Below, one piece after another: positions 22,667 through 50,111 of a DNA stretch of 50,111 nt (its first letter is position 1; the number at the start of each line of letters is the position of its first letter). Source of the stretch: an uncultured virus (IMG/VR IMGVR_UViG_3300009111_000004). Taxonomy: Duplodnaviria > Heunggongvirae > Uroviricota > Caudoviricetes. Location of the stretch: IMG/VR virus record IMGVR_UViG_3300009111_000004. The stretch is one strand, 5' to 3'. A program made the translations under genes and the position numbers. The notes beneath the pieces are model-generated. The model worked only from the letters and a program-made list of their open reading frames with translations. It did not search any database and was not told the origin of the DNA.

Positions 22667-22680
22667 TTAAGTTATTTATA

Positions 22681-23203: not shown

Positions 23204-23277
23204 GGAATTTTAGCTTACTAGGAGACAGTGGTTCTTATAAGCATTTGGTAGGAATTGTGGTATAGATTTGATCTGTT

Positions 23278-23725: not shown

Positions 23726-23981
23726 CGATCAGATCTCCATAATCTTCAATGTGGCGTTTCAATAGATCGGCCTGAATCCCACCTAAGGTAACTATAGATG
23801 TCATTGAATGTGGCTCACTATTCCAGATTGATACTTTATTCTCTACTTCCTTAATTATAAACTTTGTGTGTATAGGAAGATAAATAATCTCGTGTTGATC
23901 AACATGACCTATGATACCCCTAATACCGTTATTTTTAGTAGCTCGATTAGATACCTGCCATACCTGACCAACACGAATCAT
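23718..23981 (-). CDS. GQIW-family protein
   Basis: VGQVWQV...HTKFII. Confidence 0.8.
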   Translation of the reverse strand: MIRVGQVWQVSNRATKNNGIRGIIGHVDQHEIIYLPIHTKFIIKEVENKVSIWNSEPHSMTSIVTLGGIQADLLKRHIEDYGDLIDD

Positions 23982-25015
23982 TGATATTCTGTCCCATCTT
24001 TACGTAGGTGGTATTGCTCCCCAACTAATTTTATAATAATCCTACCTAATTTCGGATCCCAACGTTCTTTTCCTAAGCGCATAACAAACCCCTCTCGAAT
24101 TTGAGAAGGAGTAATTATACTATTTCCTGAAGCAAGAGACTCGATAATAGTCCAGTCAAATGGGCCATCATAAAGAACAGGCACCATTGGAATTTGTAAA
24201 CCGGTGCAAATGCGCTTAAAATTATCATAGTCTATATAATGCATAGCTTTCGAATCATAAATATCAAAAGCAGCATAATGAATTGGATCCTCCAAAGTTG
24301 ATCCATATTTTAAATCCTGAACTCTACCATAAACTTCACCATAGACAACAAAATCTGGTATTTGAGCTAGTTTGGTAGCCATATCATATTTACGGGCCGC
24401 CATCCAGAACACGTCTTCGATACGATCCTTGACAAAATAACGATGTGAACTTACATATAAACGTGGGGCCTCTTCCTTGGGATCGTGTCGATGGACCATG
24501 CGAGAATTACAACCGTGGATTTTTTCGGTAACAATGACTCGCTCTCTAGGAACTATTACCGTATGGTATTTTCGAGCTGATTCAATATCATATACTGGAC
24601 AAATTTGACTATCAGGCTGATGGTCTCGATGACATCCGAGACGCATATTGGTCTCAGGCTCTTCGTACTTTATAATCCCTAATGGGGTAGCTACATTATC
24701 ACCTACCTGCCAAACAAGATCAGACGGTAGAATTGAGATAGGAAATAGAAGGCCCATCGAAAAAATACCTCGAAGCTTCTTAGCTTTAACACGATGGGTC
24801 TGCCGTGATTCCTTTTGTTCTAAGAACGTAAAGGCCCGGTTATTCATTGGAACCACAGACTCAATTGGTATATAGACAGCTAAATCTCCAGGTTTAAATT
24901 CTTCAGTTCTAAAAATAACCGGACAACCTTCTACCTCGGTTAGAGAGAGAGTATCGGCATTAGGGTGCTTCTGGGTTTCACCAATTACTATAATTGGGAC
25001 AGCGAAAGTACTCAT
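23978..25015 (-). CDS. ATP-dependent RNA ligase, DRB0094-like (N-terminal OB module)
   Basis: HPNADTL, KLRGIFSMG, motif I TEKIHG, YGEVYG, FDI, REGFV. Confidence 0.92.
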   Translation of the reverse strand: MSTFAVPIIVIGETQKHPNADTLSLTEVEGCPVIFRTEEFKPGDLAVYIPIESVVPMNNRAFTFLEQKESRQTHRVKAKKLRGIFSMGLLFPISILPSDLVWQVGDNVATPLGIIKYEEPETNMRLGCHRDHQPDSQICPVYDIESARKYHTVIVPRERVIVTEKIHGCNSRMVHRHDPKEEAPRLYVSSHRYFVKDRIEDVFWMAARKYDMATKLAQIPDFVVYGEVYGRVQDLKYGSTLEDPIHYAAFDIYDSKAMHYIDYDNFKRICTGLQIPMVPVLYDGPFDWTIIESLASGNSIITPSQIREGFVMRLGKERWDPKLGRIIIKLVGEQYHLRKDGTEYQ

Positions 25016-25257
25016 AGTATGTCCTCTACTATAATAGGCCAAAAATCATTAAAGGTAGTGGCTTTACAATATAACCTCCTACCGTATAAGGTAAAATAAA
25101 CATAATTGTAAGGACTATAGCCATAGACAACTACTTTATCACCACGTTGAAGTTGTATGGACATGAGATAATGATCCACATCCCAAACCCAAACAATATC
25201 AGCATTTACTTCCCAAATTTGACCAATCTCTAACTCAAGAGGTAATTGATCTTTCAT
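25012..25257 (-). CDS. GQIW-family protein
   Basis: IGQIWEV...RGDKVVV. Confidence 0.8.
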   Translation of the reverse strand: MKDQLPLELEIGQIWEVNADIVWVWDVDHYLMSIQLQRGDKVVVYGYSPYNYVYFTLYGRRLYCKATTFNDFWPIIVEDIL

Positions 25258-25823: not shown

Positions 25824-25855
25824 TACACCAGGGGAGAGATCTCTCCCCTGGTGTA
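25824..25855. terminator. perfect 32-bp palindrome after the coiled-coil gene
   Basis: tacaccaggggagaga|tctctcccctggtgta. Confidence 0.6.
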
Positions 25856-25879: not shown

Positions 25880-26455
25880 TTACTTCTTATTCTTCTTGAA
25901 AGCCAGATTGATGATTCTTCTAGCATCCCACTTGGAGCCAAAAATTTGAGTTAGAATATCGATAACCTGACGCATGTTACCGCGCTTCTTCGGATTTAAC
26001 AACATCAGCGCTTGATCGGCGGTTAGCTGCTTTTCCTGTAGACCCTTGAGTCTCTGATGAATCTCCGCTTTGTATGACCGATGAAGACCGTCGATTCGCT
26101 GATCAAATGACTGGATAATGGCCTCCTCTCGATTTTGAAGCTCCGCTTTGTATGACTGGTGAAGACCATCGATTTGCTGCTTGTATAACTGATGAAGATC
26201 GTCGATTCGCCGCTCATATGACTGGATGATGGACTTCTCCTGATCCTTGAGCCGACTATCTATATTTGCTAGTGCCTTATTGGCCAAATCCTCAAGATCG
26301 AAGATATACTTTTTCTGGGCCTCCTCGCGCACAGCAAAATCCAATATCTGTTGATCTGCTTCACTGAGAGCCTTGATGGCGCTCGCAATCATATTCTGCA
26401 TGACGTCGGTTGCTTTGAAACTCATATACCTATCTCCCAATTGGAAGGCTGCCAA
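25880..26455 (-). CDS. coiled-coil protein with internal 11-residue-period repeats
   Basis: IDDLHQLYKQQ / IDGLHQSYKAE / IDGLHRSYKAE. Confidence 0.8.
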   Translation of the reverse strand: MAAFQLGDRYMSFKATDVMQNMIASAIKALSEADQQILDFAVREEAQKKYIFDLEDLANKALANIDSRLKDQEKSIIQSYERRIDDLHQLYKQQIDGLHQSYKAELQNREEAIIQSFDQRIDGLHRSYKAEIHQRLKGLQEKQLTADQALMLLNPKKRGNMRQVIDILTQIFGSKWDARRIINLAFKKNKK

Positions 26456-26587
26456 TCATCAGTCCGTGGGAACCACCCACGAATACGCTTTTAAGCGTTT
26501 CGGCTTAGTATGGGTTATACAATGTGCAACTTTCATGTTTACACAGCATATTCACACTTTATAGTTCCTCATATTAGTGTTATTAAT

Positions 26588-30658: not shown

Positions 30659-30729
30659 GGGCGACGCCGGAAGTCTTCATTATATTCCGGCGTCGCCCAT
30701 CATTTCTCAGGAATACGTATTCCTGAGAA
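30659..30729. terminator. 14-bp GC-rich hairpin plus perfect 26-bp palindrome
   Basis: gggcgacgccggaa..ttccggcgtcgccc; ttctcaggaatacgtattcctgagaa. Confidence 0.6.
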
Positions 30730-30874
30730 GGGCACCTGGGTTGCGGATGCCTCCACCACCTGGTTGAACTACTGGGCTAACCAGGAAGCCCATTACGTCG
30801 GCTCGCGGGATTATCGTACCCTATCCACATGGCCAAACCCAGATACTGGGTGCAAGAGGCTTGTGGGAGCCGAA

Positions 30875-31260
30875 TGGAGGTGCGGGGAATCGAACCCCGG
30901 TGTAGGAAACTTACGGTCAAGGTTTCTACGAGCGTAGCTCCGGTTTAGGTATACTGTCAGGGCTATACCGAGCAACTATCCCTGAACCAGTCGCCGTCGA
31001 TTTGTAACCTTAAGCCCCAGGATCGACGACCGTCTCTGGGTCCGCATCCCCCAAATGGACGTTTTCACGGGATGGGGGACCTCCCCGTTACTAACGGCTG
31101 GACTCTTAAGGACCAGCATCACCCTGGCTATTACGCCATGGCGACGGGCGCAACGAAACCGTTGGCCTTTGTTGTTTTGGTCGGCTTTTTACGGGGCCAG
31201 CTGACCAACCCCGGCTCGCTCCTTGTTCCTTGGGCTCCCTATCGAAACCAGTTCACCCCC
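30875..31260 (-). ncRNA. ssrA: tmRNA; tag peptide ANGFVAPVAMA; no encoded CCA
   Basis: 5' GGGGGTGAACTGGTTTCGA; 3' CCGGGGTTCGATTCCCCGCACCTCCA with G3-U70; tag ORF 31131-31166. Confidence 0.93.
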
Positions 31261-37487: not shown

Positions 37488-37521
37488 AGCCCTGACCCGC
37501 CAGCATTGGCGGGTCAGGGCT
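37488..37521 (-). terminator. 15-bp GC-rich hairpin after 37541..37876
   Basis: agccctgacccgcca-gcat-tggcgggtcagggct. Confidence 0.7.
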
Positions 37522-41036: not shown

Positions 41037-41387
41037 ATGGGTGAAAATATTCCAAGATGGTGTGGCCCACGCGGCGGTCGGAGAACATCGCTAGTATCGG
41101 AACATCTGCGTCACCCAGCTATTGGCCAACTGTGGGAGGCTAATCAGGATCTTGATGAGTGTGGTAATGGAGTTATACTTTACCCGATTATATTCTCTGG
41201 AGAAAAAGTTATAATCTTACGTGCCCCAATGGATACTAAAAAGTTTGAGCATGACTATAGGTATGAGTATTACTCACTCGATTTTCAAACCCTAGATGGG
41301 CGCATCTACAGGATCTATTACGATCAGTTCCACCAAGCATTCGAATTTATAGATGACTGCTACGAATCACGGCCATGTCGGACTTAA
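41037..41387 (+). CDS. GQIW-family protein (type A; paralog of 41651..41986)
   Basis: IGQLWEANQDL...GEKVIILR...RIYYDQFHQAFEFI. Confidence 0.8.
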   Translation: MGENIPRWCGPRGGRRTSLVSEHLRHPAIGQLWEANQDLDECGNGVILYPIIFSGEKVIILRAPMDTKKFEHDYRYEYYSLDFQTLDGRIYRIYYDQFHQAFEFIDDCYESRPCRT

Positions 41388-41644
41388 CAGCACTCAGCCC
41401 AATGACTAAACCGATTGAAATAGGTTCGGTATGGTCCCGTAAAGATTTCCCTCACCTCCGCCAATACCTTTACATATCTAAATCTCCTTATCAGGTTATG
41501 GTAGGAGATAAAGTAATTATTGAGACAACAGTGTGTGATCTAGGAACCCTAAAGATTATTTACTTTACTACGCCCAGGGGAATCTCATTATCCTTAAATG
41601 AACTTAATTTTAGACGGTTCTTTGAGCCCGTGGTAGAGCCCTGA
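41375..41644 (+). CDS. GQIW-family protein (type B; paralog of 42010..42261)
   Basis: IGSVWS...GDKVII...IIYFTTPRG. Confidence 0.8.
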   Translation: MSDLTALSPMTKPIEIGSVWSRKDFPHLRQYLYISKSPYQVMVGDKVIIETTVCDLGTLKIIYFTTPRGISLSLNELNFRRFFEPVVEP

Positions 41645-41650
41645 CCCTCG

Positions 41651-41986
41651 ATGAATGACCACATTTTTGAATGGTGTTGGCCGACACAAAAGATTTCCTC
41701 GGAGTCGGTGAATCGGTATATAACGCCGAGGATAGGTCAACTTTGGAGAGCTAACCAGGATCTTCGTGATAGAGATCGGGTTTCGCGTAGTACTGCAACA
41801 GTGCTACCCACCTATACTCTTCAGCATACACGATTCATAGAAATCAAGGCCGGTGAGAAAGTTTTAATATTGCGCACCCCCTCTCTGTGTGGAGCACGGT
41901 CATTAGACTTCCTAACACTAGATCATCGTTATTTCCGAATCTATTACGATCATTTCTGTCAAGCATTCGAGTTCATAGCTGATTAG
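41651..41986 (+). CDS. GQIW-family protein (type A')
   Basis: IGQLWRANQDL...GEKVLILR...RIYYDHFCQAFEFI. Confidence 0.8.
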   Translation: MNDHIFEWCWPTQKISSESVNRYITPRIGQLWRANQDLRDRDRVSRSTATVLPTYTLQHTRFIEIKAGEKVLILRTPSLCGARSLDFLTLDHRYFRIYYDHFCQAFEFIAD

Positions 41987-42009
41987 ATTAAGGATAGCGG
42001 ATTCGCTGC

Positions 42010-42261
42010 ATGACTTTGATAGAAGTAGGTTCGGTATGGTGCTGCCCATTAGAGACGATTGTAGGATCATTTTGGGTTACCAATCTTGATTCTTTTGATT
42101 TCTTTAAGTACCCAATTACCGAAGGCGAGAAAGTAATTGTAACTGGAACTGAAATGGATTCAGCAAAGCTTATGATTATTTACTTTACTACGCCACAAGG
42201 GACAGCACTAGCTGCTTACGAGCGTGAATTTAGGCAAATTTTTAAATTAGCAGTAGAATAA
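42010..42261 (+). CDS. GQIW-family protein (type B')
   Basis: VGSVWC...GEKVIV...IIYFTTPQG. Confidence 0.8.
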   Translation: MTLIEVGSVWCCPLETIVGSFWVTNLDSFDFFKYPITEGEKVIVTGTEMDSAKLMIIYFTTPQGTALAAYEREFRQIFKLAVE

Positions 42262-42311
42262 GAAGGAAATCACCGTGAGTAATAGACACTTAGAACTCTT
42301 AGTAAGATGAC

Positions 42312-42383
42312 AAGCCGATGTATTAAACTAAGCCGATGTATTAAACTAAGCCGATGTACTAAACTAAGCCGATGTACTAAACT
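42312..42383. repeat. 18-bp tandem repeat x4
   Basis: aagccgatgtaYtaaact x4, followed by aagtttatctattt x2. Confidence 0.9.
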
Positions 42384-42580
42384 AACGAACCGTCAGTACT
42401 CCTCTCCTTCTTATTAAGTTTATCTATTTGCTGTGCTTCAAGTTTATCTATTTCGTCTATATTAAAGTATAGTTTATTCGCGTGTCCGTCATCCCCCGGA
42501 TCAGCAGTAATCAGCGGGAGCGGGGATCGATCCATGGGAGAGGTAGTATAGGCGCTCATAATACCTTCATAGCGTGGCCT

Positions 42581-42596
42581 CGGCGCGCGGCTTGCA
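42581..42596 (+). promoter_or_regulatory. sigma54-type promoter motif
   Basis: CGGCGCGCGGCTTGCA. Confidence 0.7.
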
Positions 42597-42632
42597 TTGA
42601 GGGGGTGACGCGCCGCGCCGAAAGGAGACGTC

Positions 42633-42869
42633 GTGAAGGCTTGGGAAACAGAGTCGTTGTTTCCAGATGGTGAGACCCACCGGTCGATCCGCCTCACTCT
42701 CTTGGATGCAGCAGTGATTCGAGTAGAGGTCCTGGAAGGTCCACCTCTTGGGGATTTGCAGGAGTTGGTTCCCGTGGGTGCGTATAACCCAGAGGCTGAT
42801 ATTTCCACTTGGCAGGAGTATATCGCACACGAGTGGCGATTTCTCCAGGGCACGGTCGGGGAGAGTTGA
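42633..42869 (+). CDS. hypothetical protein
   Basis: AAGGAG SD + GTG. Confidence 0.8.
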   Translation: MKAWETESLFPDGETHRSIRLTLLDAAVIRVEVLEGPPLGDLQELVPVGAYNPEADISTWQEYIAHEWRFLQGTVGES

Positions 42870-42883
42870 CTAAGATATTCGGG

Positions 42884-42899
42884 CGGCGCGGCGCTTGCA
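42884..42899 (+). promoter_or_regulatory. sigma54-type promoter motif
   Basis: CGGCGCGGCGCTTGCA. Confidence 0.7.
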
Positions 42900-42948
42900 G
42901 TGCCCCCCTTGCGGCGGGCCCGTGGCCCTAATTGCAAAGGAGATAGCA

Positions 42949-43177
42949 ATGGAGAAGGAAATTCTGAAGAGCATTATTTTCGAACTCAAGGAGTGCACCA
43001 CTCAAGGAGTGCACCACTCAAGGAAGTGAGTGGTTCGTCAACGACGAAGAAGGGGTAGAGCAATCCGTCGAGGTTGTGGAGACAGGTCCCGATACCGTCA
43101 CCATCCAATACTTTACTGGTTTCAAAGACCAGGAAGTGCGTCGCACCTTCCGGGTGTCCATCACCGAAGTCAAATAG
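42949..43177 (+). pseudogene. paralog of 43189..43437 frameshifted by a 16-bp tandem duplication
   Basis: actcaaggagtgcacc x2 at 42984-43015; collapsing it restores a 70-aa ORF. Confidence 0.85.
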
Positions 43178-43188
43178 AGGTACCCCAA

Positions 43189-43437
43189 ATGAAGAACAGA
43201 ATCCTGACTGACATTCTTGCAGGGCTCAAGCCCGACGGTGGTAGCGAGGAAGAGTGGCTCGTTCAGGATGAAGATGGACATGAGCAATCCATCTGTGTCG
43301 TGGAGACTGGGCTCGACACCTTCACCATCGAGTATTACCCAAACGTCAGCCCTAACACCGACACTGTCGAATACCGTGCTGGTGTGGTCAATCCTTGCCG
43401 GCGGACCTTCCAAGTGACCCTCACCGAAGTCAACTAG
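43189..43437 (+). CDS. acidic hypothetical protein
   Basis: MKNRIL...EWLVQDEDGHEQS...RRTFQVTLTEVN; GAGG SD. Confidence 0.8.
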   Translation: MKNRILTDILAGLKPDGGSEEEWLVQDEDGHEQSICVVETGLDTFTIEYYPNVSPNTDTVEYRAGVVNPCRRTFQVTLTEVN

Positions 43438-43448
43438 GATTTAACACC

Positions 43449-43601
43449 ATGACCATCATCAAGCGTAATCCAGATCGTACTGAGCATGACGACTTCATCC
43501 TGAATGTCCAGCCTCACATGGGTGAACAGGACGGGGCGACCCCAATCTACAACGCTGATGGGGTGGTCGTGGCCTGGCAGATCAAGCCCATGTTCGAGTA
43601 G
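43449..43601 (+). CDS. small hypothetical protein
   Basis: start MTIIKR inferred. Confidence 0.6.
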   Translation: MTIIKRNPDRTEHDDFILNVQPHMGEQDGATPIYNADGVVVAWQIKPMFE

Positions 43602-43609
43602 TCAGCCAG

Positions 43610-43625
43610 CGGCACGCGGCTTGCA
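43610..43625 (+). promoter_or_regulatory. sigma54-type promoter motif (near consensus)
   Basis: CGGCACGCGGCTTGCA. Confidence 0.75.
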
Positions 43626-43961
43626 TCTTGATCCCCGGCGCCAGGCGGAGGGGCGGTTGTTCCGTCATAATTCCCGATCCAAGGGAATACGCCACATGAA
43701 AAGACCAGACACTGACCATTTCTGGTGGGTGAAGAGGGTCGGGGGCCATGTCCTAGTGGTTGAGGTCAGTTAATTTAGAACCAAGAACTCGGACCTTGAA
43801 AGTAATCTAGGTCCAGTGTAGCACGGTAGTTCACAACATAATAGTGTAGTCCTAACAAATCCAAATAGAGGACCGTCTGCGGTCCTCATTGCTATACGGA
43901 GCACCCCCAGGGGCGTACACTGAGTCCCCCTGGGGGTCTCAACTTTCTCAATACCGTTTCG

Positions 43962-43977
43962 CGGCGCGCCGCTTGCA
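43962..43977 (+). promoter_or_regulatory. sigma54-type motif pointing into the non-coding parS region
   Basis: CGGCGCGCCGCTTGCA. Confidence 0.65.
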
Positions 43978-44123
43978 TTTGAGATCGCGGCCCGTCGGGC
44001 GGGCGGGTAGCCCGGATCTCTTCTACCAGCATCTTGTTGGTAGCAAGATAATCTAATAATGGAGGATTACGCCAATGCCCTAGTATGAACCCCTGCGGGG
44101 GAGTGAACATTTAAAACCAACTT

Positions 44124-44280
44124 GGGCCTCGGGTGAGTTCTCCCCGAGGCCCATTTATATTTGAGTGTTCCACGTGGAACACTCTATTTACTCTGAATAC
44201 GGTTCCTCGTCGGAACAAGGACGTACCGGGAGTCAAGTAAATAAATACAGCTTCGCCTCGGGGAGAACTCACCCGAGGCG
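44124..44280. repeat. 25-bp inverted repeat pair, each arm a hairpin, bracketing parS
   Basis: gcctcgggtgagttctccccgaggc ... gcctcggggagaactcacccgaggc. Confidence 0.9.
44166..44181. other. parS: parS centromere-like site
   Basis: TGTTCCACGTGGAACA matches the bacterial parS consensus TGTTNCACGTGNAACA; palindrome extends 44163-44184. Confidence 0.8.
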
Positions 44281-44307
44281 CGAAAATGCCAACTTTCGGA
44301 TTTTGCG

Positions 44308-44529
44308 TTACTTGATTACTATGTTGACTTGTTCTATCATCAGGATCTCCGTGATAGCGGCCTGAACCTCCTTGTAGAGGTAGCTAACATGGGGTTGCTC
44401 GCTCTTGGCCCCTAGCTCGGCCAGGGTCTCCAATGCCAACTGGAGTGATTGAGCTGCCTCCAGTGCATTGGTCTTACCCCCATCAGCGACCATACACACC
44501 AGTGACTTCTTGATGCCTTTCCCGCTCAT
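44308..44529 (-). CDS. hypothetical protein, paralog of 44555..44938
   Basis: GIKKSLV...LQLALETLAELG...EVQAAI. Confidence 0.8.
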   Translation of the reverse strand: MSGKGIKKSLVCMVADGGKTNALEAAQSLQLALETLAELGAKSEQPHVSYLYKEVQAAITEILMIEQVNIVIK

Positions 44530-44554
44530 GTGTTGCTCCTTTACAATACTACCA

Positions 44555-44938
44555 CTACTCGGCCACGATTTCGGTCGAGTAGACGCTCCCAGAGGGTAGC
44601 TGCATCAGTTTGCTGGTCGAGATCACCGACAGTCCGCCGCAGCCAGCACAGGAGATCTCGATGAACGCATTACCCATCACACAGCCGGCCGAGCAGATGC
44701 ACCGTCCGCAGCGACCACAGACGATGGAGTCTAGTGTCGGGCCCTTGTCCAGAAGCTCCATGATGGCTGCCTGTACCTCCCCCTGAAGGAGCCCGACAAG
44801 TCGCTGTTGCTCAGTAGTTCCAATTTCAGCCAAGGTTCCCAACGCCACCTGTAGCTTCTGAGCCTCGGCCAGAGCAGTGACTCTCCCTTCACGCTCGGCG
44901 TGGTCCACCAGTGACTTCTTGATGCCTTCGTCGTCCAT
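44555..44938 (-). CDS. hypothetical protein with added C-terminal zinc ribbon
   Basis: GIKKSLV...EVQAAI + CGRC...CAGC. Confidence 0.8.
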   Translation of the reverse strand: MDDEGIKKSLVDHAEREGRVTALAEAQKLQVALGTLAEIGTTEQQRLVGLLQGEVQAAIMELLDKGPTLDSIVCGRCGRCICSAGCVMGNAFIEISCAGCGGLSVISTSKLMQLPSGSVYSTEIVAE

Positions 44939-44964
44939 TATTAGCCCTCCTCAGTCATTCTGAT

Positions 44965-45195
44965 TTATGTGCACAACGCTTCTTCCATTTCGATAGCCCA
45001 TTCTACTGCAGTTTCAGGGTCAGTGATCTCGACCATTTCTAGTGCCACCACCAACGCTGTTGCCTCCCAACATTCATCAATGATAGAACCGGTGCCCTTT
45101 CCCACTTTTGGGTTGCCCCGGATAGCTACTACTCGTGGATCTTGACCGGCCAACACGGTATTCCAGAACAACGCTACCATTTCATCCTTGGTCAT
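44965..45195 (-). CDS. hypothetical protein
   Basis: ORF track. Confidence 0.7.
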   Translation of the reverse strand: MTKDEMVALFWNTVLAGQDPRVVAIRGNPKVGKGTGSIIDECWEATALVVALEMVEITDPETAVEWAIEMEEALCT

Positions 45196-45204
45196 GGTGT
45201 TTTC

Positions 45205-45426
45205 CTATCTATCAATTACCACCATACGAATCTCGGTAGGAATGAGATACCAGCGTGCCCATGCACGCTGGCGCAGTCGTCGTTCCCGTGCGCTTAAAGC
45301 ATAGCGATTGGCCACATCAAAACAGAGTGTGGCACGACGCAGAGTGGTCGGAATCACCGGACGTTTACCGCGTTCTCCACGAATAGTGCGGTCGTAAATC
45401 TCTTCCAGGAGCGGATCGGCAGCCAT
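45205..45426 (-). CDS. Arg-rich hypothetical protein
   Basis: ORF track. Confidence 0.65.
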   Translation of the reverse strand: MAADPLLEEIYDRTIRGERGKRPVIPTTLRRATLCFDVANRYALSARERRLRQRAWARWYLIPTEIRMVVIDR

Positions 45427-45429
45427 AGC

Positions 45430-45645
45430 TTATTTCTCGGAACCAGAGCCGTTGGCCATTTTCTCCAGGGCAGCAATTGCAGCTGAGAGGGCGCTAGATT
45501 TATACTTTAGCGCCCTCATTGTTTCTGGAAGGACATTTTCCCGAGTAGCCGTGGACTTTTTGTGTTCAATATCCAACAACATTGTACGCAATACCACCAC
45601 ATGTTGTTGGCTATTAGTCATGAGAAGCAGAGCTGCTGTGATCAT
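45430..45645 (-). CDS. hypothetical protein
   Basis: ORF track. Confidence 0.65.
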   Translation of the reverse strand: MITAALLLMTNSQQHVVVLRTMLLDIEHKKSTATRENVLPETMRALKYKSSALSAAIAALEKMANGSGSEK

Positions 45646-45877
45646 CGATGTTTAGGAAGCGAAGGGCATGTGTCTTCGTGGTCCTTATCTCTCGGAACCA
45701 GAGCCATCGCTGGTCTTCGGATTCTTGTCGCTCTGCCTCGGGGACCTCATGCCAAAGTAGGGCATTGTAGCATCTGGCCATTTGCCGTCGAGTCTCTGGG
45801 CTAATCTTGCCCTCGACAACATCCACGTAGTGTTCTGCCCGAGCCCCATCTTCCAATGTTACCACAGTTACGAGCAT
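45614..45877 (-). CDS. hypothetical protein
   Basis: ORF track. Confidence 0.7.
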   Translation of the reverse strand: MLVTVVTLEDGARAEHYVDVVEGKISPETRRQMARCYNALLWHEVPEAERQESEDQRWLWFREIRTTKTHALRFLNIDDHSSSASHD

Positions 45878-45896
45878 GATATCACCCTTACCCTTT

Positions 45897-46265
45897 TTAA
45901 GGTTTTTGTGCCCTGGTCCCGATGTAGTGCCTCATGAGGCAGTCCCGTGGATTTCCGTCCCCATTGCAGAGGGCGCCATCGAAGAGGTGACGTGCCCCTA
46001 CGGTCTCATCTTGGGTCTGCTGCCACATGTGCTTCATGTCCATGAGGTATTGTTCCAACTCATGAATCTTACTAGAGGTGACGATCTGCCAGATATTATC
46101 ATCACTACTCCAGTATTCTCCATCCTCTTCGAGTTTGCGCTTGATCCACACTGGAGGTTCGTGATCCTTGGCCCGGATCACTTTGATCAGATCCAGCATC
46201 GAAGGGTAGGTCTGCAGCGTAGGTGGATTGTGACCATCCCGATATTCGACGACGATGGGTGCCAT
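45897..46265 (-). CDS. hypothetical protein
   Basis: AGGAGG SD. Confidence 0.8.
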   Translation of the reverse strand: MAPIVVEYRDGHNPPTLQTYPSMLDLIKVIRAKDHEPPVWIKRKLEEDGEYWSSDDNIWQIVTSSKIHELEQYLMDMKHMWQQTQDETVGARHLFDGALCNGDGNPRDCLMRHYIGTRAQKP

Positions 46266-46297
46266 AACTTCACCTCCTAGCCTCTCGTGACGATGAT

Positions 46298-46549
46298 TTA
46301 TTCCACAACCTTGACGATGTAACCAATATCGTATGGAGTGACGTTAGTGCTGTTTTCTATGGGGTCCACGGGGATGCCGACCACTATGGAGCAGTGCGGG
46401 GCCAAGGAGTTCGGCTCAATATAGATTGTGTCCTTCACCCCAATCTTCTGGATTGCTTCCAATGGGGTGGCTGCTTTGATCTCCATTACCCCACCAGGGA
46501 TAAGTGGATTGGGGACAGACAGGGGATTGATGATCGCGAACAGCGCCAT
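46298..46549 (-). CDS. hypothetical protein
   Basis: GGAG SD. Confidence 0.75.
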   Translation of the reverse strand: MALFAIINPLSVPNPLIPGGVMEIKAATPLEAIQKIGVKDTIYIEPNSLAPHCSIVVGIPVDPIENSTNVTPYDIGYIVKVVE

Positions 46550-46601
46550 GATTATGATCTCCGTTCTTCTTAGCGGAAAAGTTTATACCCCACGAATGAT
46601 C

Positions 46602-46973
46602 TTACAGGGTGCTGACCGTGTCCGGCGTGCAGAACCCGTTCTCCGGGTCGTTTGCGGGGTAGTGGGGCCTTTGCGGATCATTGAGGTGAGTGCCGCACCG
46701 GGGGCAAGCCGGGATGGCGTTGTTGACGTGCTGGGCGAGCACGGTGTGGAATTTTAGATAGAGATCGAAATGCTCCTTCAGGGTCGGCGGTTTCTTACCA
46801 AAGGACCTTCGTCCCCTGATGAGATTGGTGCAGATCAATTCGATCGTTACGCCCTTCATTGATGGGAGTTTCTTAGCACGCTCTCGGAAACGGTAGGCGG
46901 TGTTATACGATCCGAAGGTGAAGATTCGGCCAGGAGTGATCACTGTGTGGATGGCGACCGATTTCTTTTTCAA
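46602..46973 (-). CDS. hypothetical protein (cassette after repeat R1)
   Basis: TTG start directly after the repeat; CPRC. Confidence 0.7.
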   Translation of the reverse strand: MKKKSVAIHTVITPGRIFTFGSYNTAYRFRERAKKLPSMKGVTIELICTNLIRGRRSFGKKPPTLKEHFDLYLKFHTVLAQHVNNAIPACPRCGTHLNDPQRPHYPANDPENGFCTPDTVSTL

Positions 46974-47057
46974 GATCTATCCCTGACTCCTCCCCGAGGA
47001 GATCTCGGGGAAGCGACCAGAGAGGGGAGGTGCCGCGGCACCTCCCCGAAACCAAGG

Positions 47058-47073
47058 TGCAAGCCGCAAGCCG
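47058..47073 (-). promoter_or_regulatory. sigma54-type motif upstream of R1
   Basis: CGGCTTGCGGCTTGCA. Confidence 0.65.
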
Positions 47074-47090
47074 GGCCAGCTACTGAGATG

Positions 47091-47381
47091 TCAGCACTGG
47101 CAGGAGCCAGGACCACAAATCCCAGCACCGTGATCCGGCAATTCCTCCGTCCGGATCACCACCTTGGGAGAAGAACCGACGTTGAACCAGTGCCGGTCCG
47201 GGATCCCGTACTTCTTGGTGTACTCGAAGGCTGCCAGAAGACCGGGAGCGACGCTGTGTGCGTCATTCGGATCGATCTTGATGAATTCGACCTTCCCAGG
47301 GATCCTCTCGGTGGGTGACGGATTGGCATCGTAGCCGACGACCCTGGTCCAGGATTGCACTTTGAAAGTAGGCACGTTCAA
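47091..47381 (-). CDS. hypothetical protein (cassette after R2)
   Basis: GGAGCGAA + TTG. Confidence 0.75.
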   Translation of the reverse strand: MNVPTFKVQSWTRVVGYDANPSPTERIPGKVEFIKIDPNDAHSVAPGLLAAFEYTKKYGIPDRHWFNVGSSPKVVIRTEELPDHGAGICGPGSCQC

Positions 47382-47459
47382 TTCGCTCCCTGACTCCTCT
47401 CCGAGTGGATCTCGGGAAGGCGACCAGAGAGGGGAGGGTTGGCCCTCCCCTTCATGTGG

Positions 47460-47657
47460 TTAGTAAATAACACACTCTTCATCATTCAAAGTGGTGTAAT
47501 CCAGATCGAGACAAACGATCTTTCTATCCGCTGTCATCCGGATGTAACCGATTTGAGTTACCCATCCGTTAAATTTGGCCATTGTGACCCCGATTTGAGT
47601 CTCTGGCGGGATTCCTTTCAATGCTTCGAGCAACTGTCCTACTGTCTGAAGTGCCAT
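47460..47657 (-). CDS. hypothetical protein
   Basis: TVGQLLEALK motif. Confidence 0.75.
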   Translation of the reverse strand: MALQTVGQLLEALKGIPPETQIGVTMAKFNGWVTQIGYIRMTADRKIVCLDLDYTTLNDEECVIY

Positions 47658-47665
47658 TGTTTAAT

Positions 47666-47902
47666 TCACTCCTCCACTGTTTCGATGGCGTGCTCGAAGA
47701 TGGAGAGCATCGTCTTGGCTCTGCGCTCCACCTGTGTGATTTTCTTTTCCCGATCGTCAATAGAAAGACCGATGTAGTTGCGGTTCACGTATGCCGCAGA
47801 GTCTGCTCTCTTCTCCCAGAACTCGTAGAAGGCATCGCGCAGGAGATCTCGAACGTTGCCTTCCTGGAGATCGCAATTGGAGAAATCCAAGATAATCTTC
47901 AT
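47666..47902 (-). CDS. hypothetical protein (cassette after R3)
   Basis: GGAGCGAAG + ATG MKIILD. Confidence 0.75.
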   Translation of the reverse strand: MKIILDFSNCDLQEGNVRDLLRDAFYEFWEKRADSAAYVNRNYIGLSIDDREKKITQVERRAKTMLSIFEHAIETVEE

Positions 47903-47983
47903 CTTCGCTCCCTGACTCCTCTCCGAGTGGATCTCGGGAAGGCGACCAGAGAGGGGAGGGTTGGCCCTCCCCACCAGGTTGCT

Positions 47984-48421
47984 TCAGATCACCCGTTCGA
48001 TCAGGACTTCCCCATCGAGGACCTTGATGGTGCCCACCTCGTTGCGGGAGGCCAGGGCACTGCAGAAATCCGGGCCATTGGGTCCGTCATTCCTGGGCAG
48101 GACGATCCTGACGTCCAGGTGACGATCGAAGCACTTGAGGGAGTCGACCAGATCTCCGACCGTGGGGTGAGCCGTGAGGACTTGGTCCGGGAGATCCTTG
48201 TTCTTCACCATCTCGAATGAGACCTTGATCTGGAACTCCTTGAAGTTGAGGATCATGTGGTCCCCTTTGTCGAGAACCGCGATTCCCACCGATCCAGGAA
48301 GATCCTTGAAGGGCGTTCCTACCGCCTTGAGGATCTCATGGGCATCCCCGCAGACCAGCTGGGTCTTCAGGCGATCGATCGCTGTCAGGTAGTTGATCAC
48401 CGCACCTGTCTTCTCGCTCAT
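47984..48421 (-). CDS. hypothetical protein (cassette after R4)
   Basis: GGAGG + ATG MSEKTG; TVGDLVDSLK. Confidence 0.8.
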   Translation of the reverse strand: MSEKTGAVINYLTAIDRLKTQLVCGDAHEILKAVGTPFKDLPGSVGIAVLDKGDHMILNFKEFQIKVSFEMVKNKDLPDQVLTAHPTVGDLVDSLKCFDRHLDVRIVLPRNDGPNGPDFCSALASRNEVGTIKVLDGEVLIERVI

Positions 48422-48534
48422 TTTCTCACCTCCAACCCCGGTCCGAGGAGATCTCAGGCCGGTGAGCAGAGGATCGAAAAACAACAGGGGGTGAGTGAGA
48501 AGATCACTCACCCCCTGTTGTTGCCGTGGCTGGA

Positions 48535-48846
48535 TCAGTTCGCCTGGTTGGGGGTGGTGGCCGCGTCCAGGTCTGCCTCGGACATCTCGGTCGCGGTCTC
48601 GGCGGACACGATCCGGAACCGGACCTCACCCAGGGGGAACCTGCCCGCTCCCTTGGCGCAGAGGTGGATCTTCTCGCCCTTGCCCATGACCCAGGTCACG
48701 GTCCGGGTGTTCGCCTCGCCCTCGATCTGGATCTTCTCCCCGGGCCGCCACTCCTTGGTCCCTGCGGCCAGCCCCACCCCGAGGGATCCGGTGTCGCGGT
48801 TGTTGGGGACGGTGAGGGTGAAACGGTTGGTCTGGTCGTCGCTCAT
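48535..48846 (-). CDS. hypothetical protein, duplicated at 49940..50111
   Basis: GAGG + MSDDQTNRF; GC3-rich. Confidence 0.8.
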   Translation of the reverse strand: MSDDQTNRFTLTVPNNRDTGSLGVGLAAGTKEWRPGEKIQIEGEANTRTVTWVMGKGEKIHLCAKGAGRFPLGEVRFRIVSAETATEMSEADLDAATTPNQAN

Positions 48847-48914
48847 GTCGTGCCTCGTTGTGCTGCGTGGTTGCCGTGGCGGACGATCCGCCCCGGTTGC
48901 TGCCCTGCGAGCCC

Positions 48915-48930
48915 TGCGAGCGCCGTGCCG
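48915..48930 (-). promoter_or_regulatory. sigma54-type motif
   Basis: CGGCACGGCGCTCGCA. Confidence 0.6.
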
Positions 48931-49032
48931 CGCGCCGCGCTTGACCATCTGTTGTTCCCTGACTCCTCCCCGAGTGGATCTCGGGAAGGCGACCAGAGAG
49001 GGGAGGTGCCGCGGCACCTCCCCGAAACCAAA

Positions 49033-49048
49033 TGCAAGCCGCAAGCCA
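49033..49048 (-). promoter_or_regulatory. sigma54-type motif upstream of R5
   Basis: TGGCTTGCGGCTTGCA. Confidence 0.65.
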
Positions 49049-49064
49049 AGGGGATTTGGTGAGA

Positions 49065-49367
49065 TCAGGACTCCAGCTTGTGCAGTTGCTCGGTCCACTT
49101 CTTCACCCACTTCTTGTGCAGTTGCTCGGTCCACTTCTTGGGGGAATGCCACGGACCCTTCTTCCACGTGTTCAGGAGCCGGGCCAGCTCAGAATAGGTG
49201 AACACCCAGGTCTCACCGGTGGCTCGCGAGGAGGAGAGATGGATGATCTGATCTCCCTTCTTGATCTTGGTGCCCATGGTGGTGATTATGGCCCTGGGCG
49301 CTGGGCACACCTGGATGCGCTTGATGGTCCCATTGGGACGCTTGAAATCCTTGACGGTGGTCTTCAT
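49065..49367 (-). CDS. basic hypothetical protein (cassette after R6) with 36-bp-period C-terminal duplication
   Basis: AAGGAGCGAAC + ATG MKTTVK; KKWTEQLHK x2. Confidence 0.8.
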   Translation of the reverse strand: MKTTVKDFKRPNGTIKRIQVCPAPRAIITTMGTKIKKGDQIIHLSSSRATGETWVFTYSELARLLNTWKKGPWHSPKKWTEQLHKKWVKKWTEQLHKLES

Positions 49368-49466
49368 GTTCGCTCCTTCGACTCCTCCCCGAGGGGATCT
49401 CAGGGAGGCGACAGAAAGACCGAAGGGGAGGGGGGTCACCCCATCCCCCCACCAGGTTGCTTCAGA

Positions 49467-49727
49467 TCAGCCCACCTTGGCGATGGTCCACCAGGTCTCT
49501 TTGATCCCCACCTTCTCCGTCATCTCCTGCGCGGTGTCCCATGCTCCGACATGACGAATGAACGGATCGGATTGGTCGTTGCTCATGATCTGCAGGCCGG
49601 TGATCTTCTGGAATGCCTCCTCGAAGGATGAGGCAGTGACCGTGCCGTCTGGGTTGAGATCAGGGATCGGCATGTCCTTGCGGACACACCCCACCCCATG
49701 GAAATCCTGGAACGCAAATCTGGACAT
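49467..49727 (-). CDS. hypothetical protein (cassette after R7)
   Basis: AAGGAGCGAAC + ATG MSRFAF. Confidence 0.8.
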   Translation of the reverse strand: MSRFAFQDFHGVGCVRKDMPIPDLNPDGTVTASSFEEAFQKITGLQIMSNDQSDPFIRHVGAWDTAQEMTEKVGIKETWWTIAKVG

Positions 49728-49939
49728 GTTCGCTCCTTCGACTCCTCCCCGAGGGGATCTCAGGGAGGCGACAGAAAGACCGAAGGGGGGATTCTCACCC
49801 CCCCCCACCAGGTTGTTTCAGATCACCCGCTCGATCAGGGCAAAGTCACCCCCCCCCTTGCTCCCCCTGAGTGGATCTCAGGGAGGCGAGCAAGGGGGGG
49901 AGGGGGTGACCCCCTCCCCTGTTCGGATCTGGCTTCGGA

Positions 49940-50111
49940 TCAGGAGGCGGTCGCGGTCTCGGCGGACACGATCCGGAACCGGACCTCACCCAGGGGGAAG
50001 GCGCCCGTTCCCTTGGCGCAGAGGTGGATCTTCTCGCCCTTGCCCATGACCCAGGTCACGGTCCGGGTGTTCGCCTCGCCCTCGATCTGGATCTTCTCCC
50101 CGGGCCGCCAC
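49940..50111 (-). CDS. 3' part of a near-identical copy of 48535..48846 (runs off window)
   Basis: 49948-50111 nearly identical to 48588-48751; ends IVSAETATAS*. Confidence 0.8.
   Translation of the reverse strand, partial: WRPGEKIQIEGEANTRTVTWVMGKGEKIHLCAKGTGAFPLGEVRFRIVSAETATAS

What the first reader, a model, noticed from the sequence alone, without database searches (positions are those of the whole stretch)
46602..50111. Repeat-delimited gene cassette array with a conserved hairpin leader
Seen: eight intergenic repeats. On the minus strand each is a GC hairpin, then a longer imperfect stem capped by YGAG-ATCYN-CTCR (compensatory TGAG/CTCA in R8), ending at the SD and start codon of an unrelated small gene. 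R1 and R5 carry an upstream sigma54 motif. Subtypes pair up (R1=R5, R2=R3, R6=R7). Inference: portable expression cassettes that co-regulate cargo through a shared RNA leader and act as recombination points for shuffling early genes, conceptually like an integron array without an integrase in view. The array probably continues beyond the window.
Basis: partly seen in the sequence, partly recalled or inferred. Interest (0 to 1): 0.82.

Follow-up and report, generated by a model that had tools for sequence, protein, structure and literature searches.

The report
Hairpin-punctuated accessory-gene operon in a phage
A large uncultured wetland phage separates nine small unknown genes with a repeated two-hairpin RNA spacer that partly hides each ribosome-binding site and shows signs of recombination, resembling the shuffling cassettes of T4-type phages rather than an integron.

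Summary
The eight repeats are real. The core CYGAGATCYNCTCRG matches exactly eight times, all on the minus strand at 46994-49881, and 0 of 100 shuffles reach that count. Each unit is a G-run/C-run hairpin directly abutting a covarying 18-pair hairpin whose 3' arm holds the Shine-Dalgarno sequence. The fold is better in the sense RNA.

The array is bounded and does not continue. An identical metagenome contig adds 845 nt beyond the window. That stretch holds the rest of the first gene and two sigma54-consensus promoters, but no further repeat. A covariance model finds only these eight copies in about 97 kb of the phage.

The R1/R5 "sigma54 motif" belongs to a window-wide -24/-12 promoter class: 22 sites against 4 expected.

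The units are mosaics, identical copies flank two cassettes, and one cassette is a ghost. No integrase and no attC core were found.

Best reading: an mRNA punctuation and translation-control module that also serves as a homology patch for recombination, like PeSLs. No relatives or RNA data were available, so the function is inferred.

The parts
46980..47047 (-). Unit R1: hairpin 1 (47024-47047) abutting hairpin 2 (46980-47023). It leads to the TTG start at 46973.
   Evidence: The CM scores it 73.0 bits.
47058..47072 (-). Sigma54-type -24/-12 motif (GGC-N7-TTGCA) upstream of R1. The predicted transcript start falls at the first bases of hairpin 1.
   Evidence: The start position is inferred from the usual 12-nt distance after the -12 GC (recalled rule).
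47387..47450 (-). Unit R2: hairpin 1 at 47431-47450 and hairpin 2 at 47387-47430. It leads to the TTG start at 47381.
   Evidence: It is 100% identical to R3 over 69 nt.
47909..47972 (-). Unit R3: hairpin 1 at 47953-47972 and hairpin 2 at 47909-47952. It leads to the ATG at 47902.
   Evidence: The CM scores it 79.3 bits.
48422..48522 (-). Unit R4: a 19-bp hairpin 1 followed by a U-run (terminator-like), then a divergent hairpin 2 with the same cap. It leads to the ATG at 48421.
   Evidence: The CM scores it 65 bits.
48956..49023 (-). Unit R5: hairpin 1 at 49000-49023 and hairpin 2 at 48956-48999. It leads to the ATG at 48945.
   Evidence: Its hairpin 1 is 100% identical to that of R1. Its hairpin 2 is 98% identical to R2/R3.
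49033..49047 (-). Sigma54-type -24/-12 motif upstream of R5.
49369..49453 (-). Unit R6: hairpin 1 at 49425-49453 and hairpin 2 at 49369-49424. It leads to the ATG at 49367.
49729..49804 (-). Unit R7: hairpin 1 at 49785-49804 with a U-rich tail, and hairpin 2 at 49729-49784. It leads to the ATG at 49727.
49798..49838 (-). Ghost cassette. It is a 41-nt remnant, 92.7% identical to 47965-48005, which covers the last seven codons plus stop of gene 47984-48421 and its downstream flank. No ORF lies upstream of it.
49855..49919 (-). Unit R8: hairpin 1 at 49897-49919 and hairpin 2 at 49855-49896, with a shifted lower stem and the UGAG/CUCA cap. No gene follows it.
   Evidence: The CM scores it 61.7 bits.
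46602..46973 (-). Cargo gene, 123 aa, with no known family.
47091..47381 (-). Cargo gene, 96 aa, with no known family.
47460..47902 (-). Two-gene cassette (65 aa and 78 aa) of lower GC3 (0.47 and 0.68), flanked by the identical units R2 and R3.
47984..48421 (-). Cargo gene, 145 aa. Its N- and C-terminal parts occur separately in three metagenome proteins.
48535..48945 (-). Gene B. It is 103 aa from the ATG at 48846, or 136 aa from the leader's ATG at 48945, which would add an Arg-rich N-terminus. It is a paralogue of gene A.
49065..49367 (-). Cargo gene, 100 aa, with no known family.
49467..49727 (-). Cargo gene, 86 aa, flanked by R7 and R6, whose hairpin 2 is identical.
49940..50111 (-). 3' part of gene A, the first gene of the operon (91 aa). 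It continues about 104 nt beyond the window (L001 742-1017). Two sigma54-consensus promoters lie further upstream at L001 496-511 and 541-556.

Best explanation
The repeats are stop-to-start intergenic modules of a single leftward operon of about 4 kb. It holds nine small ORFan genes plus one deleted 'ghost' cassette. The operon opens the non-structural arm of an uncultured tailed phage of about 170 kb or more, found in wetland and freshwater metagenomes. It lies in a GC-rich island.

Each module acts in the sense mRNA. Hairpin 1 (G-run/C-run) closes the upstream cistron. It most likely works as an attenuator or 3'-end protector. In R1 and R5, which carry their own -24/-12 promoter, it would form the 5'-terminal hairpin of the new transcript.

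Hairpin 2 pairs a pyrimidine-rich 5' arm with the purine-rich SD region and carries an invariant GAG-AUC..CUC cap. Translation of every cargo gene is therefore damped in the same way. A common factor could release it, either a double-strand RNA endonuclease such as host RNase III (as in the T7 early operon) or a protein that binds the loop.

Because the modules are 60-100 nt of near-identical sequence in direct orientation, they also serve as homology patches. General recombination between them inserts, deletes and reshuffles cassettes, as PeSLs do in T4-type phages.

Shown: the repeats, their structure and covariation, the strand preference, the bounded operon, the promoter motifs, the mosaicism, and the absence of an integrase. 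Inferred: RNA processing or translational control, the trans-acting factor, and the recombination mechanism.
For: Repeats and structure:
- Eight exact core matches, all on the minus strand.
- The same two-hairpin fold with no linker in 8 of 8 units.
- Hairpin 2 has 18 pairs and 92.1% of 126 cells paired, against 48-63% when slid. Seven pairs change on both sides. 0 of 500 shuffles reach the covariation score.
- The sense RNA folds better than the antisense in 7 of 8 units, in total -366 against -315 kcal/mol, with 23 G-U pairs against 9.
- The SD region is among the least accessible in the phage for 5 of 7 leaders: unpaired probability 0.19-0.29 against a median of 0.50 in 102 other genes.

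Bounded operon:
- The identical contig L001 adds 845 nt. They hold gene A's 5' end and two sigma54-consensus promoters, with 0 and 1 mismatches.
- The CM finds only the eight copies in window + L001 + G001. The next best score is 15.8 bits.

Promoters:
- 22 GGC-N7-KTGCW sites against 3.97 expected (maximum 9). They lie 50-90 nt upstream of starts and in gene orientation.

Recombination:
- R3's flank groups with R7 (86%), but its hairpin 2 groups with R5/R2 (98-100%).
- R6 and R7 share an identical hairpin 2 but only 59% of hairpin 1.
- Units identical over 69 nt flank the low-GC two-gene cassette.
- There is a ghost remnant between R8 and R7.
- Genes A and B are 92% identical in DNA but sit between different units.

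Composition and copy number:
- Foreign composition: cargo GC3 is 0.68-0.93 in 8 of 9 genes, against 0.34 +/- 0.07 in 83 genes of the left arm.
- Not collapsed: unique cassette unitigs have depth 35-60 against 46 for the flank in run X1.
Against: - All copies sit in one 3-kb locus of one phage lineage. No relative could be fetched, so the covariation rests on about 5 effective paralogous types, and relatedness can inflate the shuffle control.
- SD occlusion is moderate. It is not seen for R4 (rank 23 of 102) or R5 (53 of 102), and one repeat-less gene is as occluded.
- Only 3 of 8 hairpin 1 copies (R4, R6, R7) have a U-rich tail, so most are not canonical terminators.
- No RNase III, RNA-binding regulator, sigma54 or enhancer-binding protein was found in the 97 kb seen.
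- No rearranged joints appeared in contigs of four runs.
- The two hints of population variation may be assembly products. These are the chimeric protein P0003 on a 973-nt contig and a hybrid A/B unitig in run X2.
- The ghost deletion has one endpoint inside a gene, so it was not a clean unit-to-unit crossover.
Confidence: 0.5

Rival explanations
1. Integron-like site-specific cassette system. The hairpins would be attC-like recombination sites, folded as single-stranded DNA and used by a dedicated recombinase encoded elsewhere in the genome.
For: - The layout is ORF plus a structured repeat, in one orientation, with unrelated promoter-poor cargo.
- Hairpin 2 has bulges and mismatches reminiscent of extrahelical bases.
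- Identical units flank two cassettes, as after insertion of a circle.
- Only about 97 kb of an at least 174-kb genome was seen.
Against: - No GTTRRRY or RYYYAAC core lies in any of the 8 units.
- No tyrosine integrase or other recombinase was found in the window's ORFs or in G001.
- Pairing depends on G-U wobbles that exist only in the sense strand.
- The units run up to the SD and start codon, which attC sites do not.
- The ghost deletion endpoint is not at a unit boundary.
Confidence: 0.06
2. Passive relic. The intergenic regions were copied along with local duplications or gene conversion and have no function of their own beyond carrying an SD.
For: - The copies are confined to one locus.
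- Three pairs are near-identical, suggesting recent copying.
- Genes A and B show that duplication occurs here.
Against: - Compensatory changes occur in 7 of 18 pairs.
- The cap stays invariant while hairpin 1 changes sequence completely yet remains a hairpin in all 8 units.
- The cargo genes are unrelated, so whole-cassette duplication does not explain shared spacers.
Confidence: 0.14
3. DNA-level operator. The GATC-centred imperfect palindrome would be bound in double-stranded DNA by a dimeric repressor or by a GATC-reading protein (Dam/SeqA-like), silencing the island.
For: - The cap is a CYGAG-N5-CTCRG dyad with an invariant GATC.
- GATC is 5.4-fold over expectation in the array, 75 against 13.9, compared with 1.7-fold elsewhere.
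Against: - The invariant centre is asymmetric (AUCYN).
- The arms vary by compensatory change within one genome, which a single protein's half-sites should not do.
- G-U pairs make the dyad worse on the other strand.
- Part of the GATC excess may come from G-ending codons followed by ATC (Ile) in the high-GC3 cargo (reasoning, not computed).
Confidence: 0.1
4. Transcription punctuation only. Hairpin 1 would be a terminator and hairpin 2 a cis-acting antitermination RNA (nut- or put-like) that lets polymerase read on through the array.
For: - The module has two adjacent stem-loops, as in HK022 put (recalled).
- R4, R6 and R7 have terminator-like tails.
- Gene B read from the leader's ATG would start with an Arg-rich peptide.
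Against: - Five of 8 hairpin 1 copies lack a U-tract.
- The element sits after, not before, its own hairpin 1.
- The pentaloop is not GNRA-like as in boxB (recalled).
- The Arg-rich frame overlaps promoter-like GC repeats and may not be translated.
- There is no Rfam match.
Confidence: 0.1
5. Assembly artefact: collapsed or chimeric repeats.
For: - The IMG/VR contig breaks inside R7.
- Logan unitigs break at every unit.
Against: - A second assembled contig (L001) is 100% identical over 7,995 nt, including all eight units and their order.
- Unique cassette pieces have the same depth as the flank.
- Pieces are 100% identical in runs of two studies.
Confidence: 0.02

Closest known systems
PeSL (promoter-early stem-loop) regulatory cassettes of T4-type phages (Arbiol et al. 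2010, PMC2839356: abstract and passages read; Comeau et al. 2014, PMC4122927: abstract and Introduction read)
   Same: - Short composite regulatory repeats lie between small ORFans in a plastic region of a large phage.
- The stem-loop is built from a G-run followed by a C-run.
- The units reach the SD and start codon.
- Recombination between units is proposed to delete, insert and swap cassettes.
   Different: - PeSLs carry a sigma70-type early promoter downstream of the stem-loop. Here no sigma70-like site lies in the array, and the promoters are of -24/-12 type. They sit upstream of hairpin 1 and occur in only 2 of 8 units.
- A second, covarying, SD-occluding hairpin with an invariant cap has no PeSL counterpart.
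- Mini-circles were not tested here.
RNase III processing sites between the early genes of phages T7 and T3 (recalled, no paper read)
   Same: - Related imperfect hairpins of about 20 bp with internal loops sit in each intercistronic space of one operon.
- They could leave a protective 3' hairpin on the upstream mRNA and free the downstream ribosome-binding site.
   Different: - Cleavage is untested here.
- There is no sequence similarity.
- The module here has an extra G/C hairpin and an invariant loop.
Start-associated sequences (SAS) and extended SAS of Cluster K mycobacteriophages (Pope et al. 2011, PMC3203893: abstract and passages of the SAS section read)
   Same: - A conserved asymmetric motif containing the SD lies a few bases before the start codons of unrelated non-structural genes.
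- It is preceded in many cases by an imperfect inverted repeat with a short spacer.
- The function is unknown and presumed to be translational.
   Different: - The sequences differ.
- SAS sites are dispersed over half a genome (11-19 copies) and conserved across subclusters. The units here are clustered in 3 kb of one phage.
- The inverted repeat here includes the SD itself.
Integron cassette arrays and CALINs (attC sites; features recalled)
   Same: The layout is a one-orientation array of unrelated small ORFs separated by structured imperfect palindromes.
   Different: - There are no attC core sites.
- No integrase was found.
- The structure favours the sense RNA.
- The repeats include the translation-initiation region.
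Bacterial sigma54 (RpoN) -24/-12 promoters (PMC2831329: abstract seen in a search listing only; consensus recalled)
   Same: - The GG-N10-GC spacing is met.
- TGGCACG-N4-TTGCW is matched perfectly at the array head.
- The sites point with the genes and lie 50-90 nt before the starts.
   Different: - The usual variant in this phage is CGGCSCG-N4-CTTGCA.
- No activator or sigma54 gene is in view.
- The host is unknown and dependence on sigma54 is untested.

Membership tests
PeSL cassettes | Repeated intergenic element among small ORFans in a plastic region of a large phage | tested here: met
   Eight units lie between nine ORFans with no Pfam or PHROG family. The island has foreign GC3.
PeSL cassettes | Stable stem-loop, often polyG then polyC, acting as a terminator | tested here: inconclusive
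   A G-run/C-run hairpin is present in 8 of 8 units. A U-rich tail is present in only 3 of 8. Terminator activity was not tested.
PeSL cassettes | Sigma70-like early promoter with an AT-rich upstream region inside the element | tested here: not met
   The three sigma70-like matches in L001 1-5200 all lie outside the array, at about 241, 4835 and 5166. The promoters present are of -24/-12 type.
PeSL cassettes | Recombination between elements creates indels, swaps and mini-circles | tested here: inconclusive
   Module mosaicism, identical flanking units and a ghost cassette are seen. No alternative joints appear in contigs of 4 runs. Circles cannot be tested with these tools.
Integron / CALIN (attC array) | attC core sites R'' RYYYAAC and R' GTTRRRY at the ends of each repeat | tested here: not met
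   In L001 401-4400, GTTRRRY occurs once (at 438, outside the array) and RYYYAAC twice (inside genes). Neither occurs in any unit.
Integron / CALIN (attC array) | IntI-type tyrosine recombinase (optional for CALIN) | tested here: not met
   No recombinase family is found among the window ORFs. PF00589 is absent from G001. Only about 97 kb of an at least 174-kb genome was seen.
RNase III processing sites (T7-type) | Intercistronic imperfect hairpin of roughly two helical turns with an internal loop | tested here: met
   Hairpin 2 has 18 pairs with a conserved bulge and mismatch positions.
RNase III processing sites (T7-type) | Cleavage by RNase III | not testable with these tools
   No RNA run holds the stretch. 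No RNase III gene is in G001. A host enzyme would be needed.
SAS/ESAS of Cluster K mycobacteriophages | The 13-bp SAS consensus given in PMC3203893, 3-7 bp before the start codon | tested here: not met
   The conserved pre-start motif here is a different sequence (alignments). Only the positional logic is shared.
Sigma54 promoter | GG and GC elements 10 nt apart, matching TGGCACG-N4-TTGCW, upstream of genes and more frequent than chance | tested here: met
   19 matches with up to 2 mismatches against 4.42 expected, 0 of 100 shuffles. 22 against 3.97 in 200 block shuffles, oriented with the genes. There is a perfect match at L001 496-511.
Sigma54 promoter | Dependence on sigma54 holoenzyme and an enhancer-binding ATPase | not testable with these tools
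   PF04552 and PF00158 are absent from G001 and from the window ORFs. The host is unknown.
Host REP/BIME/MITE-type repeat | Many copies in bacterial genomes | tested here: not met
   A cap-plus-SD pattern gave 40 single-match loci in 185,579 species' genomes, none with two matches. The CM scores them at most 23.4 bits, against 62-79 for the phage copies.
Any Rfam family | A covariance-model match | tested here: not met
   No match at gathering score in the array. In E-value mode, only sub-threshold miRNA-like hairpin hits fall on R8.

The most novel reading that the evidence does not exclude
A phage accessory-gene array is built on a standard stop-to-start RNA adaptor. A terminal G/C hairpin plus an SD-occluding hairpin with a recognition loop would both gate translation of any cargo placed behind it and act as the crossover site for cassette exchange. 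The array is transcribed from sigma54-type promoters that this phage uses throughout its non-structural arm. That would make it a phage programme run on the host's enhancer-dependent polymerase, or on a phage mimic of it.
Probability: 0.2. Interest if true: 0.75.

Novelty: new variant of a known kind. Interest (0 to 1): 0.55.

Why it matters
Large phages carry hundreds of small ORFans, and how these are plugged in, expressed and exchanged is poorly understood. This locus offers a compact natural example of a standardised expression adaptor. Its RNA structure is supported by covariation, and its copies show recombination footprints.

It extends the PeSL idea beyond T4-type phages and sigma70 promoters. 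The window-wide -24/-12 promoter class also makes a rarely considered question testable: whether some phages depend on sigma54-type transcription.

Tried and rejected
Searches for related DNA:
- blastn (distant mode) of the array against 50,697 phage records gave no match.
- Exact and degenerate hairpin patterns in IMG/VR gave 0, 0, and then 2 loci. One of the two is the same phage (L002). The other (L003) is a chance match, which the CM does not list at E up to 1.
- The metagenome scan returned only a contig identical to the window.

Searches for related loci by protein:
- The 145-aa protein alignment, the neighbouring 401-aa protein and P0004 found nothing but the phage itself in IMG/VR.
- An alignment of three N-domains found nothing in GTDB genomes.
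- Cassette order in relatives could therefore not be compared.

Cargo function:
- Pfam, PHROGs and the ESM Atlas gave no usable hits. The best Atlas scores were 0.81.
- Homology searches found only near-identical or fragmentary metagenome proteins.
- The AlphaFold2 model of gene B from a 3-row alignment had mean pLDDT 37 and is unusable. No fold search was run.

Other:
- Sequencing runs: no RNA holder was listed. Logan contigs of 4 runs showed no joints, and no piece bridges a unit.
- A general rule that every -24/-12 site is followed by a strong 5' hairpin was rejected. Only R1 and R5 stand out, with z of -4.3 and -5.1, while the other 20 sites have z between -1.7 and +1.7.
- The lambda N/boxB-type reading was considered and set aside, because the loop is not GNRA-like (recalled) and the Arg-rich frame is doubtful.
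- Two full-text searches for phage genomes with sigma54-type promoters listed no such paper. This was not exhaustive.
- Earlier notes of this scan had nothing for this genome, for its look-alikes, or by sequence.

Full report
**What is there**

Reading the minus strand of 46000-50111 shows small genes separated by GC-rich spacers. The core CYGAGATCYNCTCRG occurs with no mismatch eight times, all on the minus strand between 46994 and 49881. With up to two mismatches the window has 11 matches against a mean of 1.52 in shuffles, and 0 of 100 shuffles reach 11. Direct-repeat families confirm the copies and their subtypes.

Folding each spacer as RNA gives the same picture in all eight. Hairpin 1 is a G-run/C-run stem of variable sequence. 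Hairpin 2 follows with no linker. It is an imperfect 18-20-pair stem with a 5-nt loop AUCYN closed by GAG/CUC. Its 3' arm is purine-rich and contains the Shine-Dalgarno sequence 5-8 nt before the start codon. Start codons are ATG in five units and TTG in two. R8 is followed by no gene.

**Is the structure real, and in which molecule**

On an ungapped 59-column alignment of the eight hairpin 2 regions I tested a structure of 18 pairs.
- 92.1% of 126 cells form standard pairs, against 48-63% when the 3' partners are slid by 1-3 columns.
- 7 of 18 pairs change on both sides.
- 0 of 500 shuffles reach the covariation score.

There are caveats. Only 7 rows are distinct, the effective number is 5.25, and the rows are paralogues in one genome. 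The structure was also derived from these same sequences.

Hairpin 1 changes sequence completely between subtypes but remains a hairpin in 8 of 8 units. The sense (minus-strand) RNA folds better than its complement in 7 of 8 units. The totals are -366 against -315 kcal/mol, with 23 G-U pairs against 9. This favours an RNA element in the mRNA over a DNA cruciform or a duplex operator.

The SD region (-15 to -5) has an unpaired probability of 0.19-0.29 in five of seven leaders, which is the lowest 5-16% of 102 other genes of the window (median 0.50). R4 (0.39) and R5 (0.52) are not unusual, and one gene without the repeat is as occluded.

**Context and limits of the array**

The window is phage DNA of about 40% GC with genes mostly on the minus strand. 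It holds four tRNAs, a tmRNA, a type II hammerhead match, an RNA ligase, a CCA-adding enzyme, RlaP and an HNH protein. No whole genome is held for the window.

A metagenome contig, L001, is 100% identical to window 42117-50111 and extends 845 nt further. An IMG/VR contig of 47,166 nt (G001, CheckV completeness 28%) starts inside R7 at window 49792. It continues into a structural module with terminase, protease and major head protein. One cargo protein is recorded on a contig of 174,304 nt, so the genome is at least that large.

The 845 extra bases hold three things:
- the 5' part of the first gene (gene A);
- a GC-rich leader;
- two sigma54-consensus promoters, one matching TGGCACG-N4-TTGCW perfectly and one with a single mismatch, with a divergent promoter motif for the rightward genes.

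They hold no further repeat. A covariance model of hairpin 2 finds the eight copies at 62-79 bits. Nothing else scores above 15.8 bits in window + L001 + G001, a total of 106,117 bases with overlaps. The array is therefore complete: it has nine genes and does not continue beyond the promoter region.

**The sigma54 motif**

- TGGCACGNNNNTTGCW with up to 2 mismatches occurs 19 times against 4.42 expected, and 0 of 100 shuffles reach that.
- GGC-N7-[TG]TGC[AT] occurs 22 times in window plus 845 nt, against 3.97 (maximum 9) in 200 block shuffles.
- Most sites read CGGCSCG-N4-CTTGCA. They lie 50-90 nt upstream of an SD plus start codon and point with the genes on both strands.

In R1 and R5 the usual 12-nt distance from the -12 GC (recalled rule) places the transcript start at the first bases of hairpin 1, so hairpin 1 would be a 5'-terminal stem-loop there. 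This is an inference.

A strong hairpin after the promoter is not general. Only R1 and R5 stand out, with z of -4.3 and -5.1. No sigma54 or enhancer-binding protein is encoded in the 97 kb seen. Two literature searches listed no paper on phage genomes using such promoters.

Earlier notes of this scan report sigma54-type boxes in repeated cassettes of other uncultured phages. I did not check those, and they are leads only.

**Recombination footprints**

- Splitting each spacer into 5' flank, hairpin 1 and hairpin 2 gives conflicting groupings.
  - R3's flank is 86% like R7's, but its hairpin 2 is 98-100% like R5/R2 and 70% like R6/R7.
  - R5's hairpin 1 equals R1's (100%), while its hairpin 2 is closest to R2/R3 (98%).
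  - R6 and R7 share an identical hairpin 2 but only 59% of hairpin 1.
  - A simple duplication tree cannot produce this pattern.
- R2 and R3 are 100% identical over 69 nt, from the first base of hairpin 1 to just before the start codon. They flank the only cassette of lower GC3, two genes at 0.47 and 0.68. R6 and R7 flank one gene.
- Between R8 and R7 lies a 41-nt remnant, 92.7% identical to the last seven codons, the stop and the downstream flank of gene 47984-48421. No ORF lies upstream of it. This is a deleted cassette. One endpoint lies inside a gene, so the event was not a clean unit-to-unit crossover.
- Genes A and B are 92% identical in DNA over about 355 nt but have different 3' ends and different flanking units.
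- A database protein, P0003, joins the body of A to the tail of B. It sits on a 973-nt contig.
- In run X2 one unitig is A-like but carries B's letters at four positions, at twice the depth of its neighbours. Both this and P0003 could be assembly products.
- The 145-aa cargo protein is a domain mosaic. Its N-terminal part occurs in P0002 and P0004 with other C-termini, and its C-terminal part occurs alone in P0009.

**Evidence against active shuffling today**

In contigs of four runs from two studies, every laid piece listed is 100% identical except the X2 hybrid unitig above, and no alternative joint is seen. However, no piece bridges a unit, so order cannot be read from them. Unique cassette pieces have the depth of the flank (35-60 against 46 in X1), so the repeats are not a collapsed misassembly.

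**Composition**

Cargo genes have GC3 of 0.68-0.93 in 8 of 9. This falls gradually over the next genes downstream, against 0.34 +/- 0.07 for 83 genes of the left arm. The operon is thus a compositionally foreign island. GATC occurs 75 times in 3.9 kb against 13.9 expected, compared with 1.7-fold elsewhere. Eight of these lie in the caps, and several stop codons read TGATC.

**What it is not**

- Not an integron. No attC core sites lie in the units, and no integrase was found.
- Not a host repeat family. There were 40 single chance-level hits in GTDB genomes, with CM scores of at most 23.4 bits.
- Not a known RNA family.
- Not PeSL in the strict sense, because there is no sigma70-type promoter in the array.

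**Mechanism proposed**

This is inferred, with confidence of about 0.5. The module is an mRNA punctuation mark.
- Hairpin 1 ends or protects the upstream cistron. Three of eight copies have terminator-like tails.
- In R1 and R5, hairpin 1 caps the 5' end of transcripts from the internal promoters.
- Hairpin 2 holds the SD in a stem and presents an invariant loop. All cargo therefore shares one translational setting, which a common factor could release. The candidates are dsRNA cleavage as in the T7 early operon (recalled) or an unidentified loop-binding protein.
- As 60-100-nt direct repeats, the modules are also substrates for general recombination, which accounts for the mosaicism and the flanking identical copies, as shown experimentally for PeSLs (PMC2839356, passages read).

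**Comparison and novelty**

The closest known systems are:
- PeSLs, with the same logic but a different promoter type and no SD hairpin;
- T7 RNase III sites, with the same intercistronic-hairpin logic;
- SAS/ESAS of Cluster K mycobacteriophages, where an SD-linked motif is preceded by an inverted repeat and the function is unknown (PMC3203893).

I rate this a new variant of a known kind. No relatives and no RNA data were available, so function and mobility remain untested.

Noticed in passing
window, e.g. minus strand 146, 12366, 15298, 21971, 23202, 31594, 37420; plus strand 37986, 39784, 42582, 42885, 43611, 43963; L001 369-384, 496-511, 541-556: A window-wide -24/-12 (sigma54-type) promoter motif, usually CGGCSCG-N4-CTTGCA, lies 50-90 nt upstream of gene starts in gene orientation. 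There are 22 sites against about 4 expected. No sigma54 or activator gene is found in the 97 kb seen.
   Followed up: partly
window 30872-31260 (-): A full-length tmRNA match (113.8 bits, Rfam RF00023) lies inside the phage. ARAGORN did not call it.
   Followed up: no
window 26443-26505 (-): A type II hammerhead ribozyme match sits just above the gathering score (38.8 against 37 bits), directly upstream of ORF 25880-26455.
   Followed up: no
window 13474-25042 (-): An RNA-repair and tRNA toolkit: a cREC_REC domain protein (13474-13863), RlaP (16128-17333), a CCA-adding enzyme (20127-21386) and an RNA ligase (23978-25042). There are also four tRNA genes (Met, Ile, Leu-CAA, Leu-TAA). The Rfam match for the Ile tRNA is 101 nt against 74 nt by ARAGORN.
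   Followed up: no
window 42294-42401: Five to six tandem copies of an 18-nt unit lie in the segment where gene orientation switches. They resemble iterons or a protein-binding array.
   Followed up: no
window 14138-14179, 25824-25855, 30704-30729, 37488-37521: Perfect palindromes of 42, 32, 26 and 34 nt, three of them with no spacer between the arms.
   Followed up: no
window 46600-50111 plus about 390 nt beyond the window end (from L001): GATC is 5.4-fold over expectation in the array (75 against 13.9), compared with 1.7-fold in the rest of the window. Several stop codons read TGATC, and every cap holds one GATC.
   Followed up: partly
window 41037-42261; 43028-43437; 44308-44938: Local duplications outside the array. 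A diverged tandem duplication of about 620 nt (repeat families D7, D10, D11, D16, D18) lies at 41037-42261. An internal repeat of about 220-260 nt (D6, D9) lies at 43028-43437. The paralogous genes 44308-44529 and 44555-44938 are 52% identical in amino acids over 63 residues.
   Followed up: no
L001 604-684: The leader of gene A holds two copies of a 25-nt GC-rich repeat that each match the sigma54 pattern with 2 mismatches. A similar motif lies at window 48915-48930, inside the possible Arg-rich N-terminal extension of gene B.
   Followed up: no
L001 682-1009 in run X2: One unitig is identical to gene A except for four positions (949-957) that carry gene B's letters. Its depth is about twice that of its neighbours. 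This may reflect gene conversion between the paralogues in that population, or a graph artefact.
   Followed up: no
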